54,508 bases of DNA from Anaerolineales bacterium (GTDB lineage Bacteria > Chloroflexota > Anaerolineae > Anaerolineales > UBA11579): NCBI GenBank assembly GCA_046716985.1, contig JBKJWG010000315.1, positions 1 through 54,508 of the forward strand. The letters are read 5' to 3'. Below, piece after piece: positions 21,768 to 52,871 of the stretch (position 1 is its first letter; each line of letters begins with the position of its first letter). Under the pieces are notes generated by a model, which did not search any database, was not told where the DNA came from, and saw only the letters and a program-made list of their open reading frames with translations. Both the position numbers and the translations under genes were made by a program.

Positions 21768-22396
21768 TGGCAAAAAACCCGACAATAGACAAGCGCAAAG
21801 TTTCTTACGGCGAGGAACGTACTTTTCGTGGCCTTGAAGATATAGCTATCCAGCGGCGTCTGATCAAAGCCCGCAGGCTGCTTGAGATCCTGCTGTACGA
21901 AAACCCAGAAAAGGAACTGCACATCATCGAACTCGGTTGCGGTTTTTGGGCGCGAAATCTGCAAATGTTGAGCGAAGATTTTGCCGGAGTGCAATTCAGC
22001 GGCCTAGACCTCACCGTTACGAAGGAAAAGATTGGTTCGGTCAACTTAATTCAAACCGATCTAACCAAATGGGAGCCAGATCGAACGTACGGCGGCGTGC
22101 TTTCCCTGGCCGTGCTTGAGCACCTGCTTGACCCGCAGCAACATTTTGAGGTGATCGCAACTTGTCTCATGAAGGGCGGCCTGGCTGGCCTCACCACACC
22201 GACCCCACCGGCGCATTTCATTTTGGAGCGATTGGCGCGCTTGGGAATCTTTGATCGAGCCGAGATCAAAGATCACAAAATGTATTTCACCGAAAATGGG
22301 CTGACCAGCTTAGCCAAGGGGGCAGGCTTGGTTGTGGAAGAATATAGGGAAATGTCGCTAGGCATGAATCAATGGATGCTCTTACGCAAGCAGTGA
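21764..22396 (+). CDS. class I SAM-dependent methyltransferase
   Basis: ATGA overlap with the radical SAM gene. 'IIELGCGFWARNL', 'LSLAVLEHLLDPQQ' and 'LMKGGLAGLTTP'. Confidence 0.65.
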   Translation: MMAKNPTIDKRKVSYGEERTFRGLEDIAIQRRLIKARRLLEILLYENPEKELHIIELGCGFWARNLQMLSEDFAGVQFSGLDLTVTKEKIGSVNLIQTDLTKWEPDRTYGGVLSLAVLEHLLDPQQHFEVIATCLMKGGLAGLTTPTPPAHFILERLARLGIFDRAEIKDHKMYFTENGLTSLAKGAGLVVEEYREMSLGMNQWMLLRKQ

Positions 22397-23348: not shown

Positions 23349-24281
23349 ATGGACGAGCGCAGCCAAAAATACAATGCTCTTCTAGAGCGCGCCCCTTGCA
23401 ATTTGTGCGGGTCGGATGATTTCGAGGTCGTGTATCCGCCGCGCTACGAGCAAGCCAAACCGGATGAGATCCTCAACACCTTCCGTTCTTCGGGCGACGA
23501 AGTTTTGCTGGATCAACTGGTGCGCTGCAAAAATTGCGGCTTGCAATATCTGAATCCGCGGCTCAAAGCAGATGTGGTGCTGGAAGGTTATGGCGCCGGC
23601 AGCGATGAGACCTTTATCTCACAAGCCGCCGGCCGCGAACGCACGTTTGCGAAGTCACTGAAATTTATTGAAAAGTTTCGCTCTCAGCGGGGTCGCTTGC
23701 TGGATGTGGGCACGGCGGGAGGCTCGTTCCTAGCGGTGGCCAAGCAAACCGGCTGGGAAGCGGCCGGCTGCGAGCCCAACCGATGGCTGTGCGAATGGGG
23801 CAACAAGCAATATGGCTTGAAGATCGTGCCTGGCACGATCTTCGATATGAAGCTGCCGGACGCCGCCTTCGATGTGGTCACTCTATGGGATGTGCTCGAA
23901 CACACCCCCGATCCCAAGGCGGTGCTCAAAGAATGCGCTCGCGTGCTAAAACCAGGCGGCTTGCTGGTGGTCAACTATCCCGACATTTATTCCTCCATTG
24001 CGCGCCTAATGGGCCGCCGCTGGGTCTTCTTACTTTCGGTCCATCTTTATTATTTCACCAGCGAAACGCTAAAAGCTATGCTGAGCCAGGTTGGCTTTCG
24101 TCAGCTAGCACGCCGCACGCACTGGCAAACGCTCGAGCTCGGTTACATTCTCTTCCGCATGGGAACCTATTTGGGGGGCTTGGCTCGCCTGCTAGGCCGT
24201 GTAGTCAAAGCACTGCGCTTGTCCACGTTGCAAATTCCATACTGGATGGGCCAAATGCTGGTCATCGCCGAAAAGATTTAA
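23349..24281 (+). CDS. class I SAM-dependent methyltransferase with N-terminal Cys4 zinc-ribbon-like element
   Basis: 'CNLCGS...CKNCG' precedes motif I 'LLDVGTAGGSFLAVAKQTG'. 'FDVVTLWDVLEHTPDP' and 'LKPGGLLVVNYPD' complete the core. Confidence 0.8.
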   Translation: MDERSQKYNALLERAPCNLCGSDDFEVVYPPRYEQAKPDEILNTFRSSGDEVLLDQLVRCKNCGLQYLNPRLKADVVLEGYGAGSDETFISQAAGRERTFAKSLKFIEKFRSQRGRLLDVGTAGGSFLAVAKQTGWEAAGCEPNRWLCEWGNKQYGLKIVPGTIFDMKLPDAAFDVVTLWDVLEHTPDPKAVLKECARVLKPGGLLVVNYPDIYSSIARLMGRRWVFLLSVHLYYFTSETLKAMLSQVGFRQLARRTHWQTLELGYILFRMGTYLGGLARLLGRVVKALRLSTLQIPYWMGQMLVIAEKI

Positions 24282-25786: not shown

Positions 25787-28390
25787 ATGCCGAGCAAGCC
25801 TTCAAAGAATTTGAATGCTTTTTGGCGAGTGAGCCTAATCCTACTCGCCATTAGCGCCTGGGTAGCGCTTGCTTGGCTGCTGGCCGCTCCCAGTGAAGCC
25901 GGCGCGGCTGTTTTCTTGGGCTACTCAGCCGAGCGCCTGGCACTGGCCGCGGCCGCACTGCTGCCCGCTTTGCTTTTTTCTTGGCTGGCCTGGCGCGCGT
26001 GGAAAAGTCCTTCCTGGCTGGAGAAAACTACTGCAAGAATACAAGCAGCGCTTAAACCTGTTTCTCGCTTTTGGCTTGCACTTGTTTTATCACTGTTGCT
26101 GTTCCTGGTTAGCTGGGTGCTTTTCTTTTTACCTGCTGAGCGAGTTGCAAGTTTTATCGGCGCTTACTCGCTTTATCTCGCTAGGTTAAAGCCCTTACTT
26201 TTCTTTGGCATTTTGCTCGGGGCCATATCAGCCGGTTGGTTAACCTTTCAACACTATGGTTTGAACGCTAAGACTTTGCGCGGTGAAAGCAAGATTTTGC
26301 GCCCGGCGCTGCTCATCTTTGTTCTTCTATTGTTGGTCTGGGGACTGCTTGCCGCCATAGGTCTAGGCCTGGGCTTCGACGCCACCATCTGGAACGCACC
26401 AGGAGCGCCAATTCTCAGTAGTCAGGTCTTCTTATCTCTGCTATTCGCCCTGTTAATTTTGGTCGCCGCCCTTACTCTACGCAAAAGATTTCCAAAAGCT
26501 TTTTTATTTAAGCGACTCGATCTAACCCTGGCCGCACTGGTCTGGATCCTGGCGGCGGTTCTGTGGCTGCGCCAACCCGCTCAGCCCACCTATTACAGTG
26601 CGGAGCCGCGACCGCCCAACTTCGAAAGTTATCCAGTCTCAGATGCCTTCAACCATGATGCCATCGCCAACAATGTCTTGATCGGGCAGGGTTTTCACTT
26701 CGGCGGCTTGGTTGCCATTCGCCGCCCGCTGTATGTAATGTTTCTGGCCGGGCTTGAGGCTCTGCTGGGTCCCAATTACGACGCGGTCGTATCGGCGCAG
26801 GTGGTTGTCCTCGCCCTATTCCCCGCCCTACTTTATTTATTGGGCAGCAAATTGCACAATCGTTTGTCCGGATTGTTGCTAGCCGGCCTGATCACATTTC
26901 GAGAAGCCAACTCGATCGCGCTGGGTCACGTGGCCAATATGTCGCATGCCAAATTGCTCATGGCCGATTTGCCTACCGCGCTCAGCATGGCCGCCTTGGG
27001 CCTGGCTGCGGTAGTCTGGCTGCGCGGCTCGCCGCGCAATGGGGTGGCGGGCTTAATGACCGGCGGGCTGCTGGGCGCCTTTATTTTGCTGCGCTCGCAA
27101 ACGCTCACACTAATCCCCTTCTTTGTTGTGTTGGCTGTTTTGGTGTGGGGCTGGCGAGTGGCGTGGAAGCAGGCCTTGCTGTTTGTCGTCGGCGTCGCGT
27201 TAATTGCAAGTCCGTGGATCATTCGCAATCGAGTGCAAATGGGTCAGTGGGCGATCGAGGATTCTGTGGTCTCCGGCTTTCTGGCCAATCGTTACCGCAT
27301 TGAGCCCGGCACCTTTGGTTTGCCTTTCCTGGCCGGCGAAAGCGAGGGCGAGTACTATTCTCGCCAGATGGCTTCGGTGCGCCAGTTCGCCGTGCAAAAC
27401 CCAGGTTACGTCGCCGGTTTTGTCGCCGACAACTTCGTGCGCAACGAACTGCTCAATTTCATGGCCATGCCGGTCTCGCTGCAATTGCGCGACCTGGAAT
27501 CGCATGTGCGCGAGCTGCCTTATTGGCCCAGCTGGGATGGCCACCTGGCTGCCGAGAGCGCGCTGCCCATGCTGGCCAATTTATTTTTGGTCGGGCTGGG
27601 CCTCGTGGTAGCCTGGCAGCAGGCGCGCTGGGTCGGCCTGGTGCCATTGTTCATCAATATCGGCTTCACCATGAATTTGGCTCTGGCGCGCGTTTCGGGC
27701 TGGCGCTACAACCTGCCTGTCGATTGGACCGTGTTGCTGTATTACGCCTTGGGCATTGGGCAATTGCTTTTGTGGAGCATGTTTTTGCTGCAAGGCAATT
27801 CAAGGATAAAGAAATTCATTCCGAATTTGTCGATCATCGAAAAAACCAAAAATAAAAAAACCGGCTGGCCCACTAGAGCTCAATGGGCAGCGGCGACGCT
27901 CGCGCTTTTGTTGCTCGGCAATTCATTTCTGATCATCGAAGCACTCTCGCAGCCGCGCTATCATAAATTGTCGGCCCAGGAGGCGAGCGCGATTTTGGGT
28001 CCTGCAGAAACGCAAATTGGCGAGGAAACTCAAAAGGCACAGCTGGAAGAAATGGTGGCTCAAGGCCAACTCGATATATTGAATGGTCGTGCTTTGTACC
28101 CGAGCTTTTATCGCGCCGGAGAGGGCGTGGCCGAAAGCGATTTTGCTTTGACCATGCCGCTCGATTTCAAGCGTGTGACCTTTTATCTGGTCGGGCCCGA
28201 AGCCGCCTCAGTGATATTGCGCGTCGATAGCCAGCAGCTTGAATTCCCGGCTGGCAGCGACGTGCTCGTTCTGCGTTGCGGCACCAACGCGCTGGAGGCA
28301 TTGGCCATAGTGGTGACGTACGCGGATCAACGAAATGAATTGATAATCTCGTCTGATTTGGCCGCAGCCTGCCCGACTTTGAGTTCTTGA
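25787..28390 (+). CDS. large GT-C-like (ArnT/PMT_2-like) membrane glycosyltransferase, paralog B
   Basis: 867 aa. First-loop block 'YPVSDAFNHDAIANNVLIGQGFH'. 'SHAKLLMADLPTAL', 'ILLRSQTL' and 'ARVSGWRYNLPVDWTVLLYYALGIGQL' are collinear with 17576-20224. Confidence 0.6.
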   Translation: MPSKPSKNLNAFWRVSLILLAISAWVALAWLLAAPSEAGAAVFLGYSAERLALAAAALLPALLFSWLAWRAWKSPSWLEKTTARIQAALKPVSRFWLALVLSLLLFLVSWVLFFLPAERVASFIGAYSLYLARLKPLLFFGILLGAISAGWLTFQHYGLNAKTLRGESKILRPALLIFVLLLLVWGLLAAIGLGLGFDATIWNAPGAPILSSQVFLSLLFALLILVAALTLRKRFPKAFLFKRLDLTLAALVWILAAVLWLRQPAQPTYYSAEPRPPNFESYPVSDAFNHDAIANNVLIGQGFHFGGLVAIRRPLYVMFLAGLEALLGPNYDAVVSAQVVVLALFPALLYLLGSKLHNRLSGLLLAGLITFREANSIALGHVANMSHAKLLMADLPTALSMAALGLAAVVWLRGSPRNGVAGLMTGGLLGAFILLRSQTLTLIPFFVVLAVLVWGWRVAWKQALLFVVGVALIASPWIIRNRVQMGQWAIEDSVVSGFLANRYRIEPGTFGLPFLAGESEGEYYSRQMASVRQFAVQNPGYVAGFVADNFVRNELLNFMAMPVSLQLRDLESHVRELPYWPSWDGHLAAESALPMLANLFLVGLGLVVAWQQARWVGLVPLFINIGFTMNLALARVSGWRYNLPVDWTVLLYYALGIGQLLLWSMFLLQGNSRIKKFIPNLSIIEKTKNKKTGWPTRAQWAAATLALLLLGNSFLIIEALSQPRYHKLSAQEASAILGPAETQIGEETQKAQLEEMVAQGQLDILNGRALYPSFYRAGEGVAESDFALTMPLDFKRVTFYLVGPEAASVILRVDSQQLEFPAGSDVLVLRCGTNALEALAIVVTYADQRNELIISSDLAAACPTLSS

Positions 28391-28391
28391 C

Positions 28392-29945
28392 ATGGCCAAG
28401 TCGAAGAAATCTACTCGGCAACCCTCGCGAAATTTCGTGCCGGGTCTTTGGGTTCTCGGTTCGCTATTAGCCTTGTCTTTTATCTCGGCTTGGGTTTCCA
28501 GTTCATTCAAGTCAATATCAAGCTGGCCCTCTTTTGCCGCTGTACTCATGTTTTGTGCTCTGATTTTCTGGTTGACCTGGCGCGCCCTCCAACAAGAAAA
28601 GCCACCCCGTTGGCTGCTGTATTTGACTATTGGTGCGGCAGTATTCCGACTGGCGCTCGGGGTGCTCTGGTCCGTAGCGCTACCCGCCGGCGGCTACGAC
28701 ACCGAGGTGCAGAATGCCGGCTACGTGATGGAAGATGCCTTCAACCGCGACCGCGCCGGGTGGGAGTTAGCTCAATCTGGGCAGCCACTAATCGACGCTT
28801 TTCGCGGTTACAGCGTCACCGATCAATATGGCGGCTTACTCTTCTTGAGCGCAGGTATCTATCGATATTTAGGGAGCACGGAACACCAGCCTTTGTTGGT
28901 GCTTACACTGGCGGCAGCCGTCTCTGGGCTGGCAGTAGCCTTCACCTGGGCCTTCGCTCGCCGCGCTTGGGGTGAGCGAGTGGCCCTGCTGGCGGCATGG
29001 GGGTTGGCTCTTTATCCTGAGGCCGCGCTTTTGGGTTCTTCGCAAATGCGTGAGGCTTTCACAGTTTGCCTTGTTCCCGTGGCTTTGTTTGGCCTTCAGC
29101 GCGTGATGAAGAAAATCGACAGAACTGGCATCCTGCTTTTGGCTATTCCAATGGCCGCGGCCACTTTGCTTACGCGGCCGTTTGTGTTCTCTTTGGTTTT
29201 GCTTTTAGCTTTGGCGTATCTAGCTCTTGATAAATGGCGTTTGCTGCGCGACCGTAGGCTGTGGTTTGCAGCAGGTTTGGCTGCCGTGATTGGGTTGGCT
29301 TACCTTGTTTTTTCCGCTGACCTTGCCCAGCTGTGGCTGGTGCAGTCTGCGCGCTGGCAGGCCTACGTCAGCGCCAACGCTTCTGGGTGGGTGGCGCGTG
29401 AATTTGAGCGCATGCCACTCTGGCAGCAGCTGCCTGCGTTGATGATCTACGGGATTTTCCGGCCGCTGCTGCCGGCAGCGCTCACCGCCGGCGGCCCGCC
29501 CATCTGGGTTGCTATCGGCATCTGGCGTTCGGTGGGCTGGACAATCTTGCTGTCACTTCTTGTTTACGCTACTTATTTAGTTTTGCGTTCGCCAGCTTGG
29601 AAACAGTTGCCCGGCGCTTTGCTTCTCTCCAGCTGGATCGTTAGCCTGACAGCTTCTTATCGCGGCGGCGGCGATCTGTGGGACAACCCGCGCTACCGCA
29701 GCGCCTTCGCAGCCGTGCAAGTGGCCCTCGCGGCTTGGGCCTGGGTGCGCCACACGGAGACCAAAGATCCCTGGCTGCGGCGCGCCTTTGGCTCCGGCAT
29801 GCAGATGATGGCCTGGTTCATTCCCTGGTATCTGCGCCGTTATGTGGGTTTGCCCTGGTGGCCAATAGTTGAGCTTTATCAAGTCATCGGCCTTGGTTTG
29901 GCCAGCGCAGCCCTTTACGTGATCTGGGATTGGACCGGCTCTTGA
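28392..29945 (+). CDS. polytopic membrane protein, possible GT-C-type glycosyltransferase
   Basis: 517 aa. The ATG follows the upstream stop after 1 nt. There are more than 10 hydrophobic segments and an acidic loop after TM2, 'GYVMEDAFNRDRAGWELA'. The family is not recognised with certainty. Confidence 0.45.
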   Translation: MAKSKKSTRQPSRNFVPGLWVLGSLLALSFISAWVSSSFKSISSWPSFAAVLMFCALIFWLTWRALQQEKPPRWLLYLTIGAAVFRLALGVLWSVALPAGGYDTEVQNAGYVMEDAFNRDRAGWELAQSGQPLIDAFRGYSVTDQYGGLLFLSAGIYRYLGSTEHQPLLVLTLAAAVSGLAVAFTWAFARRAWGERVALLAAWGLALYPEAALLGSSQMREAFTVCLVPVALFGLQRVMKKIDRTGILLLAIPMAAATLLTRPFVFSLVLLLALAYLALDKWRLLRDRRLWFAAGLAAVIGLAYLVFSADLAQLWLVQSARWQAYVSANASGWVAREFERMPLWQQLPALMIYGIFRPLLPAALTAGGPPIWVAIGIWRSVGWTILLSLLVYATYLVLRSPAWKQLPGALLLSSWIVSLTASYRGGGDLWDNPRYRSAFAAVQVALAAWAWVRHTETKDPWLRRAFGSGMQMMAWFIPWYLRRYVGLPWWPIVELYQVIGLGLASAALYVIWDWTGS

Positions 29946-29995: not shown

Positions 29996-30508
29996 ATGAC
30001 CGAACAAAGCGCTGATACCGGCCGCGATATGCTGCTTTTGGAGCAGATCGAGACTGACCCGGATGTGACCCAGGCGTCCCTCGCAGGGCAGTTGGGCGTT
30101 GCCGTGGGCACCGTCAATTGGCACCTTAAGCGCCTAGTGGCCAAAGGCTATGTAAAGGTCACCCGCGCCCGCCGCCGAAAGCTGCGCTATATCATCACCC
30201 CGCAAGGCATTACCTTACGCGCCAAGCTCACCGTGGATTATGTGGAGCGCTCTATGCGCCTTTATCGCAAAACCCGCCGCCAGGTGCAGACTCTACTGGC
30301 TGAGGTGCGCGCGGCCGGGTACCAAACTGTGCGGGTCGAAAAGGCTGCCGGCAGCCCGGACGACATCGTAGATATCTGCCGCTTGACTTGCTTAGAGCAG
30401 GGCATGCAAGTTTCAAAAGAAAATGAGTCCGTTCCGACATTGCGCGTGATTGGGCAAAAGGTCCATTTAGAAATGATGGGAGAGCATGAGCCCCAAGCAG
30501 CTGCCTAA
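29996..30508 (+). CDS. winged-helix MarR-family EPS-associated transcriptional regulator with C-terminal extension
   Basis: 'LLLEQIETDPDVTQASLAGQLGVAVGTVNWHLKRLVAKGYVKVTRARRRKLRYIITPQGITLRAKLTVDYVERSM' follows the wHTH pattern of EPS-locus MarR regulators. About 60 extra C-terminal residues follow. The 3' end overlaps the next gene by 23 nt. Confidence 0.7.
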   Translation: MTEQSADTGRDMLLLEQIETDPDVTQASLAGQLGVAVGTVNWHLKRLVAKGYVKVTRARRRKLRYIITPQGITLRAKLTVDYVERSMRLYRKTRRQVQTLLAEVRAAGYQTVRVEKAAGSPDDIVDICRLTCLEQGMQVSKENESVPTLRVIGQKVHLEMMGEHEPQAAA

Positions 30509-31523
30509 GAAAAGCAAAGCCAAACACGTAGTGGTCACCGGTGGCGCGGGCTACATTGGATCGCTGCTGGTTGGCGAGCTGTTGCGCAACGGCTACCGCG
30601 TCTCTGTGCTCGACAAACTGCTCTTTGGCGGCGACTCGCTGGTCGGCTACCTGGCGCATCCCAATTTCAATTTCGTCAAAGCCGATGTGTGGGAGCCGCG
30701 CGCGTTGCGCGAAGTGCTCAAGACCTCGACCGGCAAGCCGGACGCGGTTGTGCACCTGGCAGCCATCGTCGGCTTTCCCGCCTGCCAGGCCGTGGGCCGC
30801 GCTGTGGCGTGGCGCTATAACGTGGAGGCTACCCAGCGCGTCTTCGAGCAAGCAGCAGACTTGGGTGTGAAGCGTTTTATTTTCAGTTCAACCTATAGCA
30901 ATTATGGCCAGTCGCCCGAAGGCAAACTGGTCACGGAAGAATCTCCGCTCAACCCGCAATCACTTTACGCAGAGACCAAGATCGCAGCAGAAGAATTCTT
31001 GCTAAAGCAAAACGGCGCCGGCTGTGCACCGCTTATTTTCCGTTTCGCAACGCTTTACGGCATTTCGCCACGTACTCGCTTCGATCTGATCGTCAATCAG
31101 TTCGTTTTAGATGCTTACACCAAGCGTGAGCTACTTATCTACCAGCGCGGTTACTCGCGCTCGTTCGTGCACGTGCGCGATATTGTGGCCGGCATTCTGT
31201 TGGGCCTCGAAGCGCCCGAAAAGAAAGTGCGCGGCGAGATCTTCAACCTCGGCGCTGAAAGCGGCAACTACCGCAAGGATCAGATCGTAGAATTTATCCT
31301 CAAACGCCTGCCCGAGATCACTGTGCGCTATAAAGACCTGACCTTCGGCGGCGACATGCGCGACATCAGTGTTTCCTTCGAGAAGGTGCGCCGCGTGCTG
31401 GGTTTTAAGACCAGCCTGACGGTGGATGACGGCGTGCGCGAAGTGCTGCACGCTTTGCAAGAAGGTTTGATCAAAGATCCCCAAGACGAGCGTTTCCGCA
31501 ATGCTCAATTCATTGTGCAGTAG
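30486..31523 (+). CDS. NAD-dependent nucleotide-sugar epimerase/dehydratase (extended SDR)
   Basis: 'VVVTGGAGYIGSLLVGELL' is the GxxGxxG motif. The catalytic motif is 'YAETK'. About 345 aa. Substrate is unknown. Confidence 0.8.
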   Translation: MSPKQLPKKSKAKHVVVTGGAGYIGSLLVGELLRNGYRVSVLDKLLFGGDSLVGYLAHPNFNFVKADVWEPRALREVLKTSTGKPDAVVHLAAIVGFPACQAVGRAVAWRYNVEATQRVFEQAADLGVKRFIFSSTYSNYGQSPEGKLVTEESPLNPQSLYAETKIAAEEFLLKQNGAGCAPLIFRFATLYGISPRTRFDLIVNQFVLDAYTKRELLIYQRGYSRSFVHVRDIVAGILLGLEAPEKKVRGEIFNLGAESGNYRKDQIVEFILKRLPEITVRYKDLTFGGDMRDISVSFEKVRRVLGFKTSLTVDDGVREVLHALQEGLIKDPQDERFRNAQFIVQ

Positions 31524-33352
<1,829 letters not shown>

Positions 33353-34636
33353 ATGAGCGACTACGCTATTCAAGTCGTTGGCCTGGGGAAGCAATATCAA
33401 CTGGGCGGTGATTCCTCTAGCTATCGCACACTGCGCGACACAATCAGCGACACGCTCACTTGGCCGGTGCGCTTGCTGCGCGGCCAGTTGCGCCACCGCG
33501 CTGAAAAGATCTGGGCGCTGCGCGACATTTCTTTCGAAGTAAAGCCCGGCCATGTGTTGGGCGTCATCGGCCGCAACGGCGCCGGCAAAAGCACGCTGCT
33601 GAAGATCCTTTCGCGCGTCACTGAGCCCAGCGCTGGCTACGCTGAGATACGCGGCCGGGTCGGCTCGCTGCTCGAAGTCGGCACCGGCTTTCATCCCGAG
33701 CTCAGCGGCCGCGAGAACATTTACCTGAACGGCGCCGTGTTAGGCATGAAGCGCCGCGAGATCGCCAAAAAATTCGACGAAATCGTCGAGTTCTCCGGCG
33801 TATCGAAATTCATCGATACGGCTGTCAAGCATTATTCCAGCGGTATGTATCTGCGCCTGGCCTTCTCCGTGGCGGCGCACCTGGAGCCAGAGATCCTCGT
33901 CGTGGACGAGGTGCTGGCAGTGGGTGACGCTGAATTCCAGCGCAAGTGCCTGGGTAAGATGAGCGACGTGGCCGAGGCGGGCCGTACCGTTCTTTTCGTC
34001 AGCCACAACATGTCGGCTATTCTGCGTCTCACGGAAGAATCGATCGTGCTGGACCGCGGCCAGTTGGTTTACCGCGCGCCCACCCGACAGGCTGTGGACT
34101 ATTACATGTCTTCGGGCCTTTCGCAGAGTGGCGAGCGCATCTGGTCGGATGATGAAGTGCCGGCGGACGCAGCACCCTTCAAGCCCATTTCGATGCGCGT
34201 GCGTGATCCAAAAGGCAACGTCGCTGAAACGGTGCAATCGCGCCAGCCACTTGAGATCGAAATTGAATATGAACTAGCGCAGCCCATTCAAGGTTTGCGC
34301 GTGGGGCTCTATTTGCAAAGTTTGCGCGGCGAAGTGATCCTAACTTCATTCGATACCGACGAGCCCAAGCAATACGATAAATACGGCACGCGCGCCGCAG
34401 GCCACTATGTGAGCCGCGCCGCATTGCCCGCCAATCTCCTGAATGAGGGCCAATACCTACTCGGCATCAACGCCAGCTCGTTCCGCGTGCGCCGTTATTT
34501 CTCCGACGAACGCGCCCTGGCCTTCACAGTGGATGCCATGGGCGCCCCTGGTATGCAATGGCCCGAGCCGCGTCAGGGTTTCGTGCGCCCGCAACTCGAT
34601 TGGAAGATCGAACAGCTCGAAAAGGTGACCGCATGA
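33353..34636 (+). CDS. wzt: ABC polysaccharide export ATPase with ~180-aa C-terminal extension (Wzt_C-like)
   Basis: Walker A 'GVIGRNGAGKSTLLKIL', signature 'YSSGMYLRLAFSVA' and Walker B 'ILVVDEVLAVGD'. The NBD ends near residue ~245. A further beta-rich domain follows ('PLEIEIEYELAQPIQGLRVGLYLQS...YLLGINASS'). Confidence 0.85.
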   Translation: MSDYAIQVVGLGKQYQLGGDSSSYRTLRDTISDTLTWPVRLLRGQLRHRAEKIWALRDISFEVKPGHVLGVIGRNGAGKSTLLKILSRVTEPSAGYAEIRGRVGSLLEVGTGFHPELSGRENIYLNGAVLGMKRREIAKKFDEIVEFSGVSKFIDTAVKHYSSGMYLRLAFSVAAHLEPEILVVDEVLAVGDAEFQRKCLGKMSDVAEAGRTVLFVSHNMSAILRLTEESIVLDRGQLVYRAPTRQAVDYYMSSGLSQSGERIWSDDEVPADAAPFKPISMRVRDPKGNVAETVQSRQPLEIEIEYELAQPIQGLRVGLYLQSLRGEVILTSFDTDEPKQYDKYGTRAAGHYVSRAALPANLLNEGQYLLGINASSFRVRRYFSDERALAFTVDAMGAPGMQWPEPRQGFVRPQLDWKIEQLEKVTA

Positions 34637-36222
34637 CCTTGCCAGCCACCAAACTCAAACGCATCTTAGGTGAATTGCCGCTCGCAGCCGAGCTCGATTG
34701 GGCGCTGCGCGGCCGACGCGCCCCTATGGATGGCTTTAAGCTTGAAGAGCTTAAGTCCGCCTTACCCAATTGGGTTGAGCAGGTAAAAAATTCTCCGCTG
34801 CGCAATCAGACCGGCAAGAAGGTGCTGGTCTTCGCCACGCTGCATTATTGGATTAGCCATGCAACCTTGCTCTCACTTGCGTTGGCAGGCATGGGACACA
34901 AGGTTACGTTCAGCTATTTGCCATACTCAAATTGGAAAAAACCGCTCAGCAAATTCGATCTGCGCCGCCGCGAGGCTTACGCCCGCAGTGTGTTCAAGCC
35001 AGCCGAACTTGTAATTGCAATCAATTCATTTGCGCAGAGCACTGCTGTTTCGCTACCCGACTCTTTGGCAGAAGCCATCGAGCAAGTTGCGATTATGGAT
35101 GCGCAGTACACACTCCAAATGGAAGAAGTGGATAAAAGCAGCGAATTGTTTCAACTGCGCTTGCAGCGCAATCAAGCTGCCGCAGCCGGTGCGCTGGCTT
35201 GGGTGCAAGCCGAGCAACCGGATGTTGTCATTTTGCCCAATGGGCTCATTCTTGAATTTGGCGCGGTATTACAGGCTGCTCGCCATTTGAATATCCCAGT
35301 GGTGAGCTATGAATTCGGCGAACAGCGCGGCCGCATTTGGTTGGCGCGCAATACGTCCGTGATGCTGCAGGAAACCGACGCGCTCTGGCGCGCTAAGAGG
35401 GATGAATCCTTTAGCGATGCGCAGCGAGCCGAAGTGGAGGAACTCTTCGCCACGCGCCAAGCTGCAGGCTTGTTCCGTCATTTCTATCGCCGCTGGCAAG
35501 ATGTGCCTGCTGAGGGCGCTGCACAAGTGCGCGTTAAACTCAATCTAGATGCGCGCCCTATTGTTCTCTTGGCCGCCAACGTGATCGGCGACAGCCTCAC
35601 TCTAGGCCGCGCCGCTTTCACCGGAGATATGAGCACCTGGCTGCGCCGCACCCTGGCGTATTTCGCCAAGCGTCCTGATTTGCAATTCGTGCTGCGCGTG
35701 CACCCAGGCGAGCGCAATCTGGGCGGTCCCTCCGTTGCCGACCTCGTGCGCGCCGAACTGCCGCAGCTGCCCGCCCACATGCGCATCGTGGCCGCCAGCG
35801 ACCCGATCAACACTTATGACTTGGTCGCCACGGCCGATTTGGGCCTGGTTTACACCACCACTGTCGGCTTGGAGATGGCCATGAGCGGCCTGCCTGTCAT
35901 CGTGGCCGGACGCACTCACTATCGCGGCAAAGGTTTCACTTTTGACCCGACTAGCTGGGAGGATTATTTCGCAAACGTAGAAAAGATCCTCGCCGATTTA
36001 CCGGCCTCCCGTCTAACTAAAGAACAGGTCGATAAGGCTTGGCACTATGCCTACAGCTTCTTCTTCGACTACCCGCAACCCTTTCCGTGGCACCTGCTGC
36101 ATTTTGAAAAAGATTTAGAGAATACGTCGTTGGCAGAAGTATTTACGCAACAGGCACAAGAAACCTACCGCCGCACATTTGACTATTTGTTAGGAGAACC
36201 CTTTGACTGGGATGCCGACTGA
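34633..36222 (+). CDS. KpsS/KpsC-like (Capsule_synth family) glycosyltransferase candidate
   Basis: The track start at 34558 lies inside wzt. The in-frame ATG at 34633 forms an ATGA overlap with the wzt stop. 'LRVHPGERNLGG' has its HP codons at 35701-35706. 'LVYTTTVGLEMAMSGLPVIVAGRTHYRGKGFT' parallels, from memory, E. coli KpsS 'HHPMDRG' and 'VVTINSTAGISAL...GNALYDIKGLT'. Confidence 0.5.
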   Translation: MTLPATKLKRILGELPLAAELDWALRGRRAPMDGFKLEELKSALPNWVEQVKNSPLRNQTGKKVLVFATLHYWISHATLLSLALAGMGHKVTFSYLPYSNWKKPLSKFDLRRREAYARSVFKPAELVIAINSFAQSTAVSLPDSLAEAIEQVAIMDAQYTLQMEEVDKSSELFQLRLQRNQAAAAGALAWVQAEQPDVVILPNGLILEFGAVLQAARHLNIPVVSYEFGEQRGRIWLARNTSVMLQETDALWRAKRDESFSDAQRAEVEELFATRQAAGLFRHFYRRWQDVPAEGAAQVRVKLNLDARPIVLLAANVIGDSLTLGRAAFTGDMSTWLRRTLAYFAKRPDLQFVLRVHPGERNLGGPSVADLVRAELPQLPAHMRIVAASDPINTYDLVATADLGLVYTTTVGLEMAMSGLPVIVAGRTHYRGKGFTFDPTSWEDYFANVEKILADLPASRLTKEQVDKAWHYAYSFFFDYPQPFPWHLLHFEKDLENTSLAEVFTQQAQETYRRTFDYLLGEPFDWDAD

Positions 36223-45239: not shown

Positions 45240-46258
45240 GCAACCGCATCAGCCAGGTGCTGCGCCTGTTGCTCACCGGCAAAGTGCAGCAAAGCGAGCA
45301 GCGCGAAATTCCGCAGATCAGTATCGAGGACTTGGCCGAGATCAAAGAATTTTTCCCCATGCCGAAATTCTTCGTTTTCGGCCATGCTCGCTCTGGCACG
45401 ACGTTGCTGGCTCGCTTGATTCGTCTCCATCCCGATATTCATTGCAACTGGCAGGCTCACTTTTTCACTCGTCCTCCGCTGCTGAGTGGCGTCCTGGCTG
45501 ACCAAAAATTTGAAGCCTGGCTGGCGCGCCCCAGCAACCGCTGGAACCGCGGTCGTGATCTTTCTCCGGTGGCGCTGCGCGCCATGAGCGATTACATCCT
45601 CGAGCGCGACGCGCTTAAAGAAGGCAAATCCATCGTGGGCGACAAGAGCCCCAACGTGCTGCTCGGCGGCGGAGCCGTGCGCGAGATGCAGCGTATTTAT
45701 CCGGACGGCTCGCTGATCTACATTGTCCGCGACGGGCGCGACACGCTCATCTCGCATCGATTCCAGAATTTCATCGATGGCAGCCAATTCCTGACCCGCG
45801 CCGATCTGACGTTGCGGGATGCCTTTGCCAAAGATTCCGAACCCTTCTTTGCCGGCAAACGCTCCGTGTTCACGCCTCAGGCGCTCAAGAGCATGGCCAA
45901 GAGCTGGGCCGACAATGTAGTCGAAACCGATCGCCTCGGGCACCAGCTTTACGGCGATCGTTATTTTTCGTTGCGCTACGAAGATCTGCTGGCGCGACCA
46001 TTCGAAATGCTCACCAAGACCTGGGCTTTTTTGAGCGCCAACTCTGAAGGACTTGAGAATAAAGTCAACGCAGAAATGGCGCAAAACCCGGATGCGGTCT
46101 ACCAAAAAGAAAAAGCCCCCGACCTCGCCGCGGCGCTGGAAAAAGGCAAGCGCGGTTCCTGGAAACAACTCTTCACGCAGGGCGACAAAAATCTCTTTAA
46201 AGAAACCGCCGGCGAGGTTTTGCTTACCTGGGGCTATGAGCAAAGCGCGGATTGGTAG
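45236..46258 (+). CDS. PAPS-dependent sulfotransferase
   Basis: ATG at 45236 in an ATGA overlap (track start 45164). 'FVFGHARSGTTLLARLI' is a 5'-PSB-type loop. 'YIVRDGRDTLISH' is a 3'-PB-type motif. Confidence 0.75.
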   Translation: MSNRISQVLRLLLTGKVQQSEQREIPQISIEDLAEIKEFFPMPKFFVFGHARSGTTLLARLIRLHPDIHCNWQAHFFTRPPLLSGVLADQKFEAWLARPSNRWNRGRDLSPVALRAMSDYILERDALKEGKSIVGDKSPNVLLGGGAVREMQRIYPDGSLIYIVRDGRDTLISHRFQNFIDGSQFLTRADLTLRDAFAKDSEPFFAGKRSVFTPQALKSMAKSWADNVVETDRLGHQLYGDRYFSLRYEDLLARPFEMLTKTWAFLSANSEGLENKVNAEMAQNPDAVYQKEKAPDLAAALEKGKRGSWKQLFTQGDKNLFKETAGEVLLTWGYEQSADW

Positions 46259-47251
46259 ATGAAATTCCTGATCGCCGGCTTTGGCTCTATCGGCCGTCGC
46301 CACTTTCGTAATCTCAAGGCGCTGGGCGAAAAAGATGTTCTCTTTTATCGCAGCGGCAAAAGCCAACTTGAAGACAAAGAATTGTCCGGTCATGTGATTG
46401 AGCGCGATCTGAAATCTGCCCTCGCGCACGAACCCAATGCGGTCGTTGTTGCGAATCCGACCGCATTGCATCTCGACGTTGCTGTTCCGGCTGCGCAAGC
46501 CGGGTGCCATATCCTGCTCGAGAAACCCATTTCCAACAATATAGACCGCGTTGATGCGCTGGCCGCGGCTGCAAAAAAAAGTGGCAGCCGTATCCTGATG
46601 GGTTTCCAATATCGTTTCCACCCCGGTTTGCAAAAGGCTGCCGAGATCTTGCGCTCAGGCGAGCTGGGTAAACCCCTTTCGGCTCGCGCACACTGGGGCG
46701 AATATCTTCCCGATTGGCATCCCAATGAGGACTATCGCCAAGGCTACAGCGCCCGAGCGGATCTGGGCGGCGGCGTGGTGCTCACGTTGTCTCACCCGTT
46801 TGACTATTTGCGCTGGCTGCTGGGTGAGGTCCAAGAGGTTTGGGGAAATGTGAAGCGCAGCGGCCAACTGGAAATCGATGTGGAAGATGAAGCCGAGGCT
46901 GGCTTGGAATTTGCCAGTGGTGCGCTCGCCAGTATCCACCTGGATTATTTACAGCGCCCCCCCGCCCATTGGCTGGAGATCGTCTGCGCGGCTGGCTTGT
47001 TGCATTGGGACGCGGACAGCGGACAGCTGGGCGTGCACCGCGCTGCGGACGGCAGCGAGCAGGAGTTCCTGCCGCCGGCGGGATTCGAACGCGATGAACT
47101 GTTTTTAGCCCAGATGCGCCATTTTATTGCGGTGGTGAAGGGCGAGGCCGCCCCGCAATGCACTTTGGAGGATGGTCGCCGCGCTTTGGAGATCGCCCTA
47201 GCTGTGCACAAATCTGCGGCAGAAGGCAAGGGCATTAGATTAGGCCGCTAA
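46259..47251 (+). CDS. Gfo/Idh/MocA-family NAD(P)-dependent sugar oxidoreductase
   Basis: N-terminal Rossmann 'MKFLIAGFGSIGRRHFRNL' and the family 'LLEKPIS' motif. The stop overlaps the stop of the convergent minus-strand gene. Confidence 0.8.
   Translation: MKFLIAGFGSIGRRHFRNLKALGEKDVLFYRSGKSQLEDKELSGHVIERDLKSALAHEPNAVVVANPTALHLDVAVPAAQAGCHILLEKPISNNIDRVDALAAAAKKSGSRILMGFQYRFHPGLQKAAEILRSGELGKPLSARAHWGEYLPDWHPNEDYRQGYSARADLGGGVVLTLSHPFDYLRWLLGEVQEVWGNVKRSGQLEIDVEDEAEAGLEFASGALASIHLDYLQRPPAHWLEIVCAAGLLHWDADSGQLGVHRAADGSEQEFLPPAGFERDELFLAQMRHFIAVVKGEAAPQCTLEDGRRALEIALAVHKSAAEGKGIRLGR

Positions 47252-51080: not shown

Positions 51081-52871
<1,791 letters not shown>

What the first reader, a model, noticed from the sequence alone, without database searches (positions are those of the whole stretch)
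33353..34636. Wzt ATPase carries a ~180-aa C-terminal domain, implying export gated by a chain-terminal cap
Seen: the NBD motifs end around residue ~245 of 427. The remainder is a beta-rich domain.

Established: in E. coli O8/O9a and Klebsiella O12/Raoultella systems, a C-terminal carbohydrate-binding module on Wzt recognises the non-reducing terminal modification added by a dedicated terminator. That modification is a methyl, methyl-phosphate or beta-Kdo group, and it couples chain-length control to export.

Inference: the same logic applies here. The genes translationally coupled immediately downstream are obvious terminator candidates: the KpsS/KpsC-like transferase (34633-36222) and a SAM MTase (36212-37057).
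Basis: partly seen in the sequence, partly recalled or inferred. Interest (0 to 1): 0.65.

Follow-up and report, generated by a model that had tools for sequence, protein, structure and literature searches.

The report
Cap-reading glycan exporter in Anaerolineae
The ATPase of a sugar-chain export pump in a Chloroflexota bacterium carries an extra domain of the kind that checks for a finished-chain cap before export, and it always sits next to a probable cap-adding enzyme and the genes for an unusual sialic-acid-like sugar; this extends a mechanism known from gut bacteria to a phylum that lacks their outer-membrane lipid.

Summary
ORF 33353-34636 encodes a 427-aa Wzt. Its ABC motifs end at residue 219, and residues ~256-427 form a beta-rich domain. 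Pfam Wzt_C matches above threshold (36.1 vs 30.4 bits). The 17 best PDB matches of the AlphaFold model are all Wzt carbohydrate-binding domains (5HNO, 2R5O, 6O14, 8DKU). The downstream genes overlap as claimed (ATGA; 11 nt).

The organism is an Anaerolineales (Chloroflexota) bacterium. That phylum lacks LPS genes, so the cargo is not an O-antigen.

In 80 species-level genomes, a Wzt with this same domain lies directly upstream of the KpsC/S-like gene in 74/76 loci, and the methyltransferase directly downstream in 69/75. A PseB / reductase / NeuB / cytidylyltransferase set is present in 43-44 of 44 full loci.

The KpsC/S-like enzyme keeps the catalytic Asp and the HP motif but has NxxxD instead of QxxxD, so it belongs to a sister family.

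Best reading: export gated by a cap, probably a cassette-made nonulosonic acid added by this enzyme and possibly methylated. The cap's identity is inferred, not shown. No coiled-coil ruler was found in the KpsC/S-like model.

Verdict: a known mechanism in a new variant; moderate interest.

The parts
29996..30508 (+). MarR/winged-helix regulator at the head of the conserved cassette
   Evidence: Pfam HTH_24 46 bits, MarR_2; present in 43/44 full-flank loci
30486..31523 (+). NAD-dependent sugar epimerase/dehydratase (Epi1)
   Evidence: Pfam Epimerase 152 bits, GDP_Man_Dehyd 95 bits; in 35/44 loci
31530..32489 (+). GDP-L-fucose-synthase-like reductase/epimerase
   Evidence: NCBIfam GDPFucSynFcl 314 bits, below its 500-bit cutoff; in 43/44 loci
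32486..33352 (+). Wzm, ABC-2 permease of the exporter
   Evidence: Pfam ABC2_membrane 70 bits; its stop directly abuts the wzt ATG; 44/44 loci
33353..34087 (+). Wzt nucleotide-binding domain (residues 1-245)
   Evidence: ABC_tran 69.8 bits; motif positions; E=3e-65 to A. aeolicus Wzt 8DKU/7K2T
34118..34633 (+). Wzt C-terminal carbohydrate-binding domain (residues ~256-427; Pfam match 280-394)
   Evidence: PF14524 36.1 bits vs cutoff 30.4; AF2 model pLDDT 72.5; Foldseek top 17 hits all Wzt CBDs, TMt 0.53-0.60 for the isolated-CBD entries; 41 invariant positions across species
34633..36222 (+). KpsC/KpsS-like GT-B transferase; candidate cap-adding (terminating) CMP-ulosonic-acid transferase
   Evidence: Capsule_synth 34.4 bits; AF2 pLDDT 93; best TM/rmsd to KpsC 6MGB/8FUX/8FUW; N316-x3-D320 and H357-P358 align to KpsC QxxxD and HP, invariant in the family; directly follows the CBD-Wzt in 74/76 loci
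36212..37057 (+). SAM-dependent methyltransferase; candidate modifier of the cap or of the nonulosonic acid
   Evidence: Methyltransf_11 59.5 bits; directly follows the KpsC/S-like gene in 69/75 loci; fused to it in L014 and P0241
37071..38078 (+). PseB, UDP-GlcNAc 4,6-dehydratase (inverting)
   Evidence: NCBIfam TIGR03589 equivalog 485 bits vs cutoff 407.75; 43/44 loci
38075..39007 (+). RmlD-like 4-keto-sugar reductase
   Evidence: RmlD_sub_bind 201 bits; TIGR01214 186 bits, below cutoff 224; 44/44 loci
39010..40074 (+). NeuB-family nonulosonic acid synthase
   Evidence: Pfam NeuB 219.5 bits + SAF; below both the NeuB and PseI equivalog cutoffs; 44/44 loci
40090..41160 (+). GT4-type glycosyltransferase
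   Evidence: Glycos_transf_1 104 bits; 44/44 loci
41154..41918 (+). CMP-sugar cytidylyltransferase (KdsB/NeuA superfamily)
   Evidence: CTP_transf_3 130 bits; KdsB-type and PseF models all below cutoff; 44/44 loci
41915..42823 (+). conserved protein of unknown function (302 aa)
   Evidence: no Pfam or NCBIfam hit; 41/44 loci
42823..43797 (+). GT2 glycosyltransferase
   Evidence: Glycos_transf_2 46 bits; 37/44 loci
43749..45239 (+). TagB/BFO_1060-like transferase with an HP motif; second candidate nonulosonic-acid transferase (variable part of the cluster)
   Evidence: NCBIfam BFO_1060 family 39.5 bits, below cutoff 200; Glyphos_transf 23 bits; RLHPNH motif; only 23/44 loci
45164..46258 (+). 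sulfotransferase; alternative cap or decoration enzyme
   Evidence: Sulfotransfer_3 75 bits; 16/44 loci; in L070 a sulfotransferase takes the methyltransferase's place

Best explanation
This is the export-and-termination module of an ABC-transporter-dependent pathway for a cell-envelope glycan in an Anaerolineales (Chloroflexota) bacterium. Wzm (permease) and Wzt (ATPase) move a lipid-linked polysaccharide across the cytoplasmic membrane. Wzt's C-terminal ~170 residues form a Wzt_C jelly-roll carbohydrate-binding domain. [quoted passage not shown]

The cap is most likely an ulosonic acid. It would be made by the PseB / RmlD-like reductase / NeuB-family synthase / cytidylyltransferase genes of the same operon and transferred from its CMP-activated form by the KpsC/KpsS-like GT-B enzyme encoded directly after wzt. 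That enzyme probably uses the retaining, covalent Asp-adduct mechanism of beta-Kdo transferases (D320 as nucleophile, H357 of the HP motif acting on the CMP phosphate). The adjacent SAM methyltransferase probably methylates the cap sugar, or its CMP-activated precursor.

Shown: the domain family and fold, the motifs, the gene overlaps, and class-wide synteny. Inferred: cap binding, cap-dependent export, the identity of the cap and donor, and the role of the methyltransferase.
For: CBD identity:
- PF14524 above its gathering score.
- Full-length alignment to A. aeolicus Wzt extends into its CBD.
- Foldseek top 17 PDB hits are all Wzt CBDs, including the Kdo-cap binder 5HNO and the methyl-phosphate-cap binder 2R5O.
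- Known CBDs bind the cap and are required for export (PMC9445017, PMC11231755).

Conserved ligand implied: 41 CBD positions are invariant across ~75 species at a median 59% identity.

Link to the KpsC/S-like enzyme:
- ATGA overlap with wzt.
- A Wzt with this same CBD is the immediate upstream gene in 74/76 loci.

Enzyme chemistry:
- Capsule_synth hit.
- Best TM-score and rmsd to KpsC beta-Kdo transferases.
- D320 and H357-P358 align to KpsC's nucleophile Asp and HP motif. They are conserved in 116/123 and 122/124 diverse representatives.
- Roles of these residues are taken from PMC10148158.

Donor:
- NeuB, the cytidylyltransferase and the RmlD-like reductase are in 44/44 full loci, and PseB in 43/44.
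- The other HP-motif transferase is in only 23/44.
- Chloroflexota are reported to lack LPS pathway genes (PMC7332563).

Precedent: a retaining beta-Kdo GT (WbbB) is the terminator read by the O12 Wzt CBD (PMC11231755, PMC9587256).

Methyltransferase coupling:
- 11-nt overlap.
- Immediately downstream in 69/75 loci.
- Fused with the GT in L014 (807 aa) and P0241 (893 aa).

Methyl group probably not the primary determinant: three loci without the adjacent MTase keep 39-41 of the 41 invariant CBD positions.
Against: - No binding or export experiment exists for this protein or any close relative.
- The CBD model is only moderately confident (pLDDT 72.5). Its most conserved stretch, residues ~379-404, is modelled at pLDDT about 30. 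TM-scores to known CBDs are 0.5-0.6.
- The isolated domain finds no PDB relative by sequence.
- The only A. aeolicus methyl-pocket residue that can be aligned (Leu300) corresponds to an invariant Tyr here, so ligand specificity cannot be read off.
- The transferase lacks the invariant Gln of QxxxD. Its sequence link to KpsC in the PDB is weak (E 0.06-0.4).
- Its model has no long coiled coil of the kind characterised terminators have (PMC11231755).
- Synteny across one bacterial class can be vertical inheritance of an operon. It shows functional linkage but not which gene makes the cap.
- KpsC/KpsS themselves build a lipid-proximal linker, not a cap.
- The window contains other possible cap enzymes: six further methyltransferases, a sulfotransferase with a PAPS synthase, and a BFO_1060-like transferase.
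- Absence of a Kdo pathway in this genome was not checked directly.
Confidence: 0.55

Rival explanations
1. The cap is an O-methyl group placed on the terminal sugar of the polymer by the adjacent methyltransferase (36212-37057), as in E. coli O8, A. aeolicus and the G. stearothermophilus S-layer glycan. The KpsC/S-like enzyme does something else, for example adding an internal or adaptor ulosonic-acid residue.
For: Methyl caps are the commonest documented kind and are read by Wzt CBDs (PMC9445017; PMC2943079, where wzm, wzt and the cap-forming wsaE have overlapping stop and start codons, as the genes do here). The MTase is immediately downstream of the GT in 69/75 loci and within 43/44 full loci. 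It is translationally coupled.
Against: Three loci lack the homologous MTase within 10 kb (one has a sulfotransferase in its place), yet their CBDs keep 39-41 of 41 invariant positions. The residue aligned to A. aeolicus methyl-pocket Leu300 is an invariant Tyr. Fusion of the MTase to the GT suggests it acts on the GT's sugar or product. In Legionella, methyltransferases in nonulosonic-acid clusters modify the sugar's N-substituent rather than cap a chain (PMC3766260).
Confidence: 0.2
2. The KpsC/S-like enzyme is an initiator, linker-builder or polymerase, as KpsS/KpsC are in group 2 capsules or as would be needed for a Legionella-type poly-nonulosonic-acid chain. The CBD then reads a cap made by another enzyme (sulfotransferase, BFO_1060-like transferase, an upstream methyltransferase), or it reads the polymer itself.
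For: The closest structural relatives, KpsC modules, extend a lipid-linked poly-Kdo linker rather than terminate chains (PMC10148158). The conserved cassette holds few glycosyltransferases (KpsC/S-like, GT4, GT2, one unknown), so the KpsC/S-like enzyme may be needed for chain building. Legionella exports a polylegionaminic-acid O-antigen through Wzm/Wzt (PMC3766260). A sulfotransferase and a PAPS synthase lie in the cluster.
Against: The sulfotransferase (16/44) and the BFO_1060-like gene (23/44) are not consistently present, while the CBD core is invariant. The tight wzt / KpsC-like adjacency and overlap mirror the transporter-terminator arrangement in the S-layer cluster (PMC2943079). A Capsule_synth-superfamily GT acting as terminator has a direct precedent in WbbB (PMC11231755).
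Confidence: 0.17
3. The C-terminal domain has the Wzt_C fold but no longer reads a cap. It serves only dimerisation or ATPase regulation, and export is coupled to elongation as in CBD-less systems such as K. pneumoniae O2a.
For: No binding data exist. The ligand pocket cannot be mapped from sequence. CBDs also modulate ATP hydrolysis (PMC9445017).
Against: A domain kept only as a scaffold would not be expected to retain 41 invariant positions, including six Arg and three Trp, across a bacterial class. All characterised Wzt_C domains bind a terminal cap (PMC9445017, PMC11231755).
Confidence: 0.06

Closest known systems
Klebsiella pneumoniae O12 / Raoultella terrigena Wzm-Wzt with WbbB (GT99 beta-Kdo terminator); CBD structures 5HNO/5HNP
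   Same: Wzt NBD fused to a Wzt_C jelly-roll CBD (top Foldseek hit). The candidate terminator is a GT-B enzyme of the Capsule_synth superfamily with a catalytic Asp and an HP motif, using a CMP-activated ulosonic acid. The cap would be an acidic keto-sugar.
   Different: Here the transferase is a stand-alone 529-aa protein with no polymerase modules and no coiled-coil ruler. It has NxxxD rather than QxxxD. The donor is probably a nonulosonic acid made by the operon rather than Kdo. A methyltransferase is coupled to it. The host lacks LPS, so the glycan is not an O-antigen.
Aquifex aeolicus WzmWzt (7K2T, 8DKU, 6O14, 8DKY), 3-O-methyl-Man/Rha cap
   Same: Closest solved relative by sequence (E=3e-65; the alignment runs from the NBD into the CBD). 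Same overall architecture. The lowest-rmsd CBD match (2.5-2.6 A).
   Different: The alignable methyl-pocket residue differs (Leu300 vs an invariant Tyr). The trap loop and Trp362 cannot be aligned by sequence. The gene context here points to an ulosonic-acid cap.
E. coli O9a/O8 Wzt with WbdD (kinase-methyltransferase or methyltransferase terminator); CBD 2R5O
   Same: The CBD fold matches. The principle of coupling termination to export. A methyltransferase is encoded with the transporter.
   Different: WbdD is a coiled-coil ruler protein that modifies the terminal mannose. No kinase or ruler is seen here. The MTase here is paired, and sometimes fused, with a glycosyltransferase.
Geobacillus stearothermophilus NRS 2004/3a S-layer glycan cluster (wzm-wzt-wsaE), PMC2943079
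   Same: A non-LPS glycan in a bacterium without a classical outer membrane. The wzm, wzt and cap-forming genes have overlapping stop and start codons. The methyltransferase is fused to glycosyltransferase modules. Wzt is predicted to bind the capped chain.
   Different: The cap there is 2-O-methyl-rhamnose on a rhamnan. There is no ulosonic-acid pathway and no KpsC-like enzyme. The final acceptor and ligase (WsaB, Wzy_C type) are known there; here only PMT_2-like membrane proteins are seen nearby.
KpsC/KpsS (GT107) retaining beta-Kdo transferases of group 2 capsules
   Same: Pfam Capsule_synth. Best structural match (TMt 0.50-0.54). Aligned Asp nucleophile and HP motif.
   Different: Sequence similarity is marginal (E 0.06-0.4). 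Asn replaces the invariant Gln. About 200 extra residues. KpsC/S build a lipid-proximal linker for KpsMT export, not a cap for a Wzt CBD.
Tannerella forsythia Tanf_01245 / BFO_1060 Pse/Leg-derivative transferases (PMC5420450)
   Same: They transfer a CMP-nonulosonic acid to the terminal position of a surface glycan. HP motif. Weak NCBIfam matches for both the KpsC/S-like protein (26.9 bits) and ORF 43749-45239 (39.5 bits).
   Different: Both scores are far below the 200-bit family cutoff. The T. forsythia system is a Wzx-type protein O-glycosylation pathway with no CBD checkpoint.

Membership tests
Wzt with C-terminal carbohydrate-binding domain (PF14524; cap-dependent O-PS/S-layer glycan ABC exporters) | N-terminal ABC nucleotide-binding domain of the Wzt/TagH type | tested here: met
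   ABC_tran 69.8 bits; all five motifs located; E=3e-65 to A. aeolicus Wzt
Wzt with C-terminal carbohydrate-binding domain (PF14524; cap-dependent O-PS/S-layer glycan ABC exporters) | C-terminal domain matching the Wzt_C profile above the curated threshold | tested here: met
   36.1 bits vs gathering score 30.4, residues 280-394; PF14524 precomputed for 118 of the 120 listed homologs
Wzt with C-terminal carbohydrate-binding domain (PF14524; cap-dependent O-PS/S-layer glycan ABC exporters) | Beta-sandwich/jelly-roll fold like 2R5O, 5HNO, 6O14 | tested here: met
   Foldseek top 17 PDB hits are all Wzt CBDs, E 1e-4 to 2e-3, TMt 0.53-0.60 for the isolated-CBD entries; the model is moderate, pLDDT 72.5
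Wzt with C-terminal carbohydrate-binding domain (PF14524; cap-dependent O-PS/S-layer glycan ABC exporters) | CBD dimer stabilised by mutual exchange of strands | not tested
   Only a monomer was modelled. The low-confidence stretch at residues ~379-404 is compatible with an exchanged segment, but this is conjecture.
Wzt with C-terminal carbohydrate-binding domain (PF14524; cap-dependent O-PS/S-layer glycan ABC exporters) | Partner Wzm ABC-2 permease encoded alongside | tested here: met
   ABC2_membrane 70 bits; stop abuts the wzt start; 44/44 loci
Wzt with C-terminal carbohydrate-binding domain (PF14524; cap-dependent O-PS/S-layer glycan ABC exporters) | CBD binds the non-reducing terminal cap, and export requires it | not testable with these tools
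   Needs binding and export assays
Wzt with C-terminal carbohydrate-binding domain (PF14524; cap-dependent O-PS/S-layer glycan ABC exporters) | Dedicated terminator containing a coiled-coil molecular ruler (PMC11231755) | tested here: not met
   The longest helix in the high-confidence model of the KpsC/S-like protein is 24 residues. The methyltransferase was not modelled.
Retaining beta-Kdo glycosyltransferases GT99/GT107 (WbbB, KpsC, KpsS) | Match to the Capsule_synth (PF05159) profile | tested here: met
   34.4 bits vs cutoff 20, residues 282-440
Retaining beta-Kdo glycosyltransferases GT99/GT107 (WbbB, KpsC, KpsS) | Modified GT-B architecture resembling KpsC/WbbB | tested here: inconclusive
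   KpsC entries give the best TM (0.50-0.54) and rmsd (~6 A), against ~0.3 and 13-16 A for ordinary GT-B proteins. A TM of 0.5 over ~320 of 529 residues is only partial.
Retaining beta-Kdo glycosyltransferases GT99/GT107 (WbbB, KpsC, KpsS) | Invariant QXXXD motif with the Asp nucleophile (PMC10148158) | tested here: not met
   The aligned motif is N316-V-I-G-D320. Across 150 diverse representatives N is in 111/123 and D in 116/123, and Q is not among the five commonest residues listed at position 316. The Asp is kept; the Gln is not.
Retaining beta-Kdo glycosyltransferases GT99/GT107 (WbbB, KpsC, KpsS) | HP motif whose His acts on the CMP phosphate | tested here: met
   H357-P358 align to KpsC's HP; 122/124 representatives
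Retaining beta-Kdo glycosyltransferases GT99/GT107 (WbbB, KpsC, KpsS) | Glu general base in the N-terminal domain | tested here: inconclusive
   Several invariant Glu residues exist (E208, E227, E230), but none could be assigned without model coordinates
Retaining beta-Kdo glycosyltransferases GT99/GT107 (WbbB, KpsC, KpsS) | CMP-Kdo as donor | not testable with these tools
   The gene context (NeuB and cytidylyltransferase in 44/44 loci) points instead to a CMP-nonulosonic acid
BFO_1060/Tanf_01245 nonulosonic-acid transferases | Match to NCBIfam NF046086 above its cutoff | tested here: not met
   KpsC/S-like 26.9 bits and ORF 43749-45239 39.5 bits, against a cutoff of 200
Canonical pseudaminic acid pathway (PseB-C-H-G-I-F) | PseB dehydratase | tested here: met
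   TIGR03589 485 bits vs 407.75
Canonical pseudaminic acid pathway (PseB-C-H-G-I-F) | PseC aminotransferase (and PseH, PseG) encoded with it; PseI and PseF at equivalog level | tested here: not met
   No DegT homolog within +-10 kb in 45 full loci. An RmlD-like reductase follows PseB instead. PseI scores 241 against a cutoff of 340, and PseF 34 against 206.

The most novel reading that the evidence does not exclude
Across the class Anaerolineae (at least 590 species-level genomes), a conserved cassette makes a previously undescribed nonulosonic acid by a short route: PseB, then a 4-keto reductase, then a NeuB-type synthase, then CMP activation, with no amination step. That route would give a mono-acetamido 9-deoxy sugar. 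A new NxxxD/RxHPxE family of retaining ulosonic-acid transferases, working with a partner methyltransferase, installs it as the chain-terminating cap that a dedicated Wzt carbohydrate-binding domain reads before export. This would be the first nonulosonic-acid cap checkpoint, and a defining envelope glycan of an LPS-less phylum.
Probability: 0.2. Interest if true: 0.7.

Novelty: new variant of a known kind. Interest (0 to 1): 0.45.

Why it matters
The cap-and-check mechanism that couples glycan completion to export has been worked out in a few Proteobacteria and in Aquifex, with methyl, methyl-phosphate and Kdo caps.

Here the same machinery is conserved across a whole class of Chloroflexota, a phylum whose envelope is poorly understood and which lacks LPS. 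It sits next to a large, uncharacterised sister family of the beta-Kdo transferases (5,956 cluster representatives) and a non-canonical nonulosonic-acid pathway.

If the inferred cap is right, three things follow:
- The known cap chemistries extend to nonulosonic acids.
- A big family of hypothetical proteins gets a function.
- The module becomes a handle on a class-wide surface glycan of abundant soil, sediment and wastewater bacteria.

If the cap turns out to be a plain methyl group, this is simply another member of a known system.

Tried and rejected
- Sequence search of the isolated C-terminal domain against the PDB found nothing meaningful. Only the Pfam profile and the fold comparison place it.
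- Single-sequence and profile searches of the KpsC/S-like protein against the PDB gave only marginal KpsC hits, mixed with chance beta-lactamase hits. The link rests on Pfam, the fold search and the motifs.
- PHROGs gave no hit for the KpsC/S-like protein, so there is no phage connection.
- A search for sequencing runs found only DNA metagenomes (freshwater sediment, soil, groundwater) and no RNA, so co-transcription could not be checked.
- The key survey of CBM-linked transporters and terminators (Mann, Kimber & Whitfield 2019, Glycobiology 29:822) is not in the held library. I cannot say whether this Chloroflexota cassette or a nonulosonic-acid terminator was already catalogued there.
- I considered the sulfotransferase and the BFO_1060-like transferase as the main cap enzyme. 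I ranked them lower because they are present in only 16/44 and 23/44 loci while the CBD core is invariant.
- I considered that the L014 GT-MTase fusion might be a MAG frameshift. A second, differently sized fusion (P0241) makes a real fusion more likely, but both could belong to one lineage.
- The TPR-fused distant relatives recalled FlmG, a TPR + GT-B pseudaminic-acid transferase (PMC7591256). I had no FlmG sequence to compare, so this stays a lead.
- Mapping the A. aeolicus cap-pocket residues onto this CBD failed beyond one position, because the sequence alignment ends before the trap loop.
Full report
**1.

The window has an ATG-initiated ORF at 33353..34636 on the + strand encoding 427 residues. 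Its ABC motifs lie in the first half: Walker A 73-80, Q-loop 107-113, signature YSSGM 161-165, Walker B 181-186 and H-loop 216-219. Pfam ABC_tran covers residues 56-187. About 180 residues follow.

An AlphaFold2 model of residues 241-427, built on 31 homologs, shows eight strands and two short helices. The tail is conserved. It has 73% mean identity among 119 homologs, against 84% for the NBD. Across ~75 species-level genomes at a median 59% identity, 41 of its positions are invariant.

**2. The domain is a Wzt carbohydrate-binding domain**

- Pfam PF14524 (Wzt_C) matches residues 280-394 at 36.1 bits, above the 30.4-bit gathering score.
- The best solved relative of the full protein is A. aeolicus Wzt (8DKU/7K2T, E=3e-65). 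That alignment continues past the NBD into the carbohydrate-binding domain (query 51-370).
- The isolated domain finds nothing in the PDB by sequence, so it is divergent.
- The 17 best Foldseek matches of the model are all Wzt CBDs. They are the Kdo-cap binder of R. terrigena/K. pneumoniae O12 (5HNO/5HNP), the E. coli O9a domain (2R5O) and the A. aeolicus domain alone or in the full transporter (6O14, 8DKY, 8DKU, 8DL0, 8DNE, 7K2T). The isolated-CBD entries give TMt 0.53-0.60.
- The next matches are unrelated lipid-binding beta-sandwiches at E-values roughly ten-fold weaker or more.

One caveat: the model is only moderately confident (pLDDT 72.5), and its most conserved stretch, residues ~379-404, is modelled poorly. 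Known CBDs are dimers stabilised by mutual strand exchange (PMC9445017). That may explain why a monomer model fails in this stretch, but I did not test it.

**3. Organism and cargo**

Homologs at 70-98% identity come from Anaerolineales/Chloroflexota metagenome-assembled genomes. Near-identical DNA occurs in freshwater-sediment, soil and groundwater metagenomes.

Crucial LPS-biosynthesis genes are reported absent from Chloroflexota (PMC7332563). The cargo is therefore not an LPS O-antigen. It is some other envelope glycan. The closest documented analogy is S-layer glycan export in Geobacillus stearothermophilus. There, wzm, wzt and the cap-forming wsaE also have overlapping stop and start codons, and Wzt is predicted to bind a 2-O-methyl-capped chain (PMC2943079).

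The window as a whole is one large glycan cluster, almost entirely on the + strand:
- at least twelve glycosyltransferases;
- seven methyltransferase-domain ORFs;
- a B12/radical-SAM enzyme;
- a DegT aminotransferase;
- four large polytopic membrane proteins, two with PMT_2 matches;
- a sulfotransferase and a PAPS synthase.

**4. The downstream genes**

The wzm TAA abuts the wzt ATG. The wzt TGA overlaps the next ATG as ATGA. The methyltransferase ATG at 36212 lies 11 nt inside the preceding gene.

*The 529-aa product of 34633-36222.*
- It matches Pfam Capsule_synth (34.4 bits, cutoff 20).
- Sequence searches against the PDB give only marginal KpsC hits.
- Its AlphaFold model is excellent (pLDDT 93).
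- By TM-score and rmsd the model is closest to KpsC beta-Kdo transferases (6MGB, 8FUX, 8FUW, 6MGD: TMt 0.50-0.54, rmsd ~6 A). Ordinary GT-B proteins score ~0.3 and 13-16 A.

*Catalytic motifs.* Retaining beta-Kdo transferases are defined by an invariant QXXXD motif carrying the Asp nucleophile, an HP motif whose His acts on the CMP phosphate, and a Glu base (PMC10148158). In the alignment to KpsC, the query's N316-V-I-G-D320 sits on QXXXD and H357-P358 sits on HP. All four residues are invariant in a 42-member family alignment.

The family is large. An exhaustive profile search found 5,956 cluster representatives. In the best 150 of them the signature is NxxxD(S/T) (N 111/123, D 116/123) and RxHPxE (H and P each 122/124).

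So this is a large sister family of GT99/GT107. It keeps the nucleophile and the CMP-binding motif but consistently replaces the Gln. It probably works like a retaining CMP-ulosonic-acid transferase. It should not be filed as KpsC or KpsS.

**5. Which sugar**

Directly downstream lie:
- PseB, at equivalog level (485 bits vs 407.75);
- an RmlD-like reductase;
- a NeuB-family synthase, below both the NeuB and PseI cutoffs;
- a GT4 glycosyltransferase;
- a KdsB/NeuA-type cytidylyltransferase, below all specific cutoffs.

This looks like a nonulosonic-acid pathway, but not the canonical pseudaminic or legionaminic route. No DegT-type aminotransferase lies within 10 kb of the cassette in any of 45 full loci. 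The window's only one (9311-10426) is outside the conserved part.

A second HP-motif enzyme (43749-45239, RLHPNH) weakly matches the BFO_1060 family. That family consists of the genetically validated Pse/Leg-derivative transferases of Tannerella forsythia (PMC5420450).

**6. Comparative evidence**

A scan of species-representative genomes with the KpsC/S-like alignment found at least 591 genomes with a relative. The best 80 are all Anaerolineae/Chloroflexota, including the cultured Thermanaerothrix solaris.

| Gene or relation | Count |
|---|---|
| Wzt with NBD and this CBD immediately upstream of the KpsC/S-like gene | 74/76 loci |
| Methyltransferase immediately downstream | 69/75 loci |
| Wzm, Wzt NBD+CBD, KpsC/S-like, RmlD-like, NeuB, GT4, cytidylyltransferase | 44/44 full-flank loci |
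| Methyltransferase, PseB, MarR, Fcl-like | 43/44 |
| Unknown 302-aa protein | 41/44 |
| GT2 | 37/44 |
| Epi1 | 35/44 |
| BFO_1060-like gene | 23/44 |
| Sulfotransferase | 16/44 |

The KpsC/S-like enzyme is thus the only candidate CMP-ulosonic-acid transferase that always accompanies both the sugar pathway and the CBD.

The exceptions are informative:
- In L014 the transferase and methyltransferase form one 807-aa ORF. P0241 is a second such fusion of 893 aa. This argues that the two act on the same sugar or product.
- In L070 a sulfotransferase occupies the methyltransferase's position. In L023 and L077 unknown proteins do.
- In those three loci the CBD keeps 39-41 of its 41 invariant positions. 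This is weak evidence (n=3, and a methyltransferase could lie elsewhere in the genome) that the methyl group is not the CBD's main determinant.

**7. Most likely mechanism**

Glycosyltransferases of the cluster build a polyprenol-linked glycan on the cytoplasmic face. The KpsC/S-like enzyme then transfers one cassette-made ulosonic acid from its CMP derivative to the non-reducing end, probably through a covalent Asp320 adduct. This blocks further extension. The partner methyltransferase decorates that sugar. The Wzt CBD binds the cap and licenses export through Wzm/Wzt.

What is shown: domain families, folds, motifs, gene overlaps and class-wide linkage.

What is inferred: cap binding, cap-dependence of export, the identity of the cap and donor, and the order of events.

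The main precedent is the O12 system, where the retaining beta-Kdo transferase module of WbbB is the terminator read by the Wzt CBD (PMC11231755, PMC9587256).

Points against the analogy:
- Characterised terminators carry a coiled-coil ruler (PMC11231755). The longest helix in this transferase's model is 24 residues, so how chain length would be set is open.
- KpsC/KpsS themselves build a lipid-proximal linker rather than a cap.
- In Legionella, methyltransferases in nonulosonic-acid clusters modify the sugar's N-substituent rather than cap a chain (PMC3766260).

**8. Rivals**

- A plain O-methyl cap made by the adjacent methyltransferase (0.2).
- The KpsC/S-like enzyme as initiator, linker-builder or polymerase, with the cap made by another enzyme (0.17).
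- A CBD retained only for dimerisation or ATPase regulation (0.06).

**9. Novelty and score**

A Wzt with a Wzt_C domain is a known kind, and Pfam flags it automatically in nearly all homologs.

What is new:
- the setting, a conserved cassette across a class of an LPS-less phylum;
- the stand-alone, ruler-less, NxxxD-type transferase family;
- the probable nonulosonic-acid cap made by a non-canonical pathway.

The published survey of CBM-linked transporters and terminators (Mann et al. 2019) could not be read, so prior description of similar cassettes cannot be excluded.

I rate this a new variant of a known kind, of moderate interest (0.45). The most novel reading not excluded by the evidence is a first nonulosonic-acid cap checkpoint involving a previously undescribed sugar. 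I give that about 0.2 probability and 0.7 interest if true.

Noticed in passing
window 45164-46258 and 51111-52871; L070:11647-12687: A sulfotransferase and a bifunctional ATP-sulfurylase/APS-kinase (PAPS synthase) lie in the cluster, so the glycan is probably sulfated. In one relative (L070) a sulfotransferase sits directly after the KpsC/S-like gene where the methyltransferase normally is.
   Followed up: partly
window 37071-41918 (PseB, RmlD-like, NeuB, GT4, cytidylyltransferase): The conserved nonulosonic-acid gene set has an equivalog-level PseB followed by a 4-keto-reductase-like gene. No aminotransferase lies within 10 kb in 45/45 related loci. This suggests a non-canonical, possibly mono-amino 9-deoxy nonulosonic acid. 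The GT4 gene between NeuB and the cytidylyltransferase sits where, as I recall, Pse clusters place the nucleotide-sugar hydrolase PseG, but no PseG model was among its 25 best NCBIfam matches.
   Followed up: partly
window 43749-45239: A second HP-motif GT-B enzyme (RLHPNH) with weak matches to the Tannerella BFO_1060 Pse/Leg-transferase family and to TagB/TagF. It is present in only about half of related loci. It may add a further nonulosonic-acid residue.
   Followed up: partly
L014:9998-12421; protein P0241: Natural fusions of the KpsC/S-like transferase with the Methyltransf_11 domain (807 and 893 aa). More distant family members (P0308, P0326, P0368, P0386, P0350, P0380) are fused to TPR repeats. 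That architecture recalls the flagellin pseudaminic-acid transferase FlmG, but homology to FlmG was not tested.
   Followed up: partly
window 15508-17589, 17576-20224, 25787-28390, 28392-29945: Four large polytopic membrane proteins (517-882 aa). One has a PMT_2 match above threshold and one a match below it; the other two have no Pfam hit. They are candidate GT-C enzymes or ligases that would act on the exported glycan outside the membrane. Their presence varies among related loci (12-20 of 45).
   Followed up: partly
window 13-621, 588-1322, 6888-7802, 10435-11202, 21764-22396, 23349-24281, 36212-37057; 20283-21767: Seven methyltransferase-domain ORFs and a B12-binding radical-SAM enzyme in one glycan cluster imply a heavily methylated product. 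A methyltransferase near wzt is therefore weak evidence by itself for a methyl cap.
   Followed up: no
window 29996-30508: A MarR/winged-helix regulator heads the conserved cassette in 43/44 related loci and overlaps the next gene by 23 nt. This suggests dedicated transcriptional control of the export/termination module.
   Followed up: no
window 47248-48843 and 48847-50478 (minus strand): Two adjacent 531- and 543-aa ORFs on the opposite strand with no Pfam match mark the end of the + strand cluster.
   Followed up: no
window 45107-46633 (minus strand): A 508-aa ORF antisense to the sulfotransferase gene has no Pfam match. It is probably a spurious reading frame in this ~55% G+C sequence.
   Followed up: no
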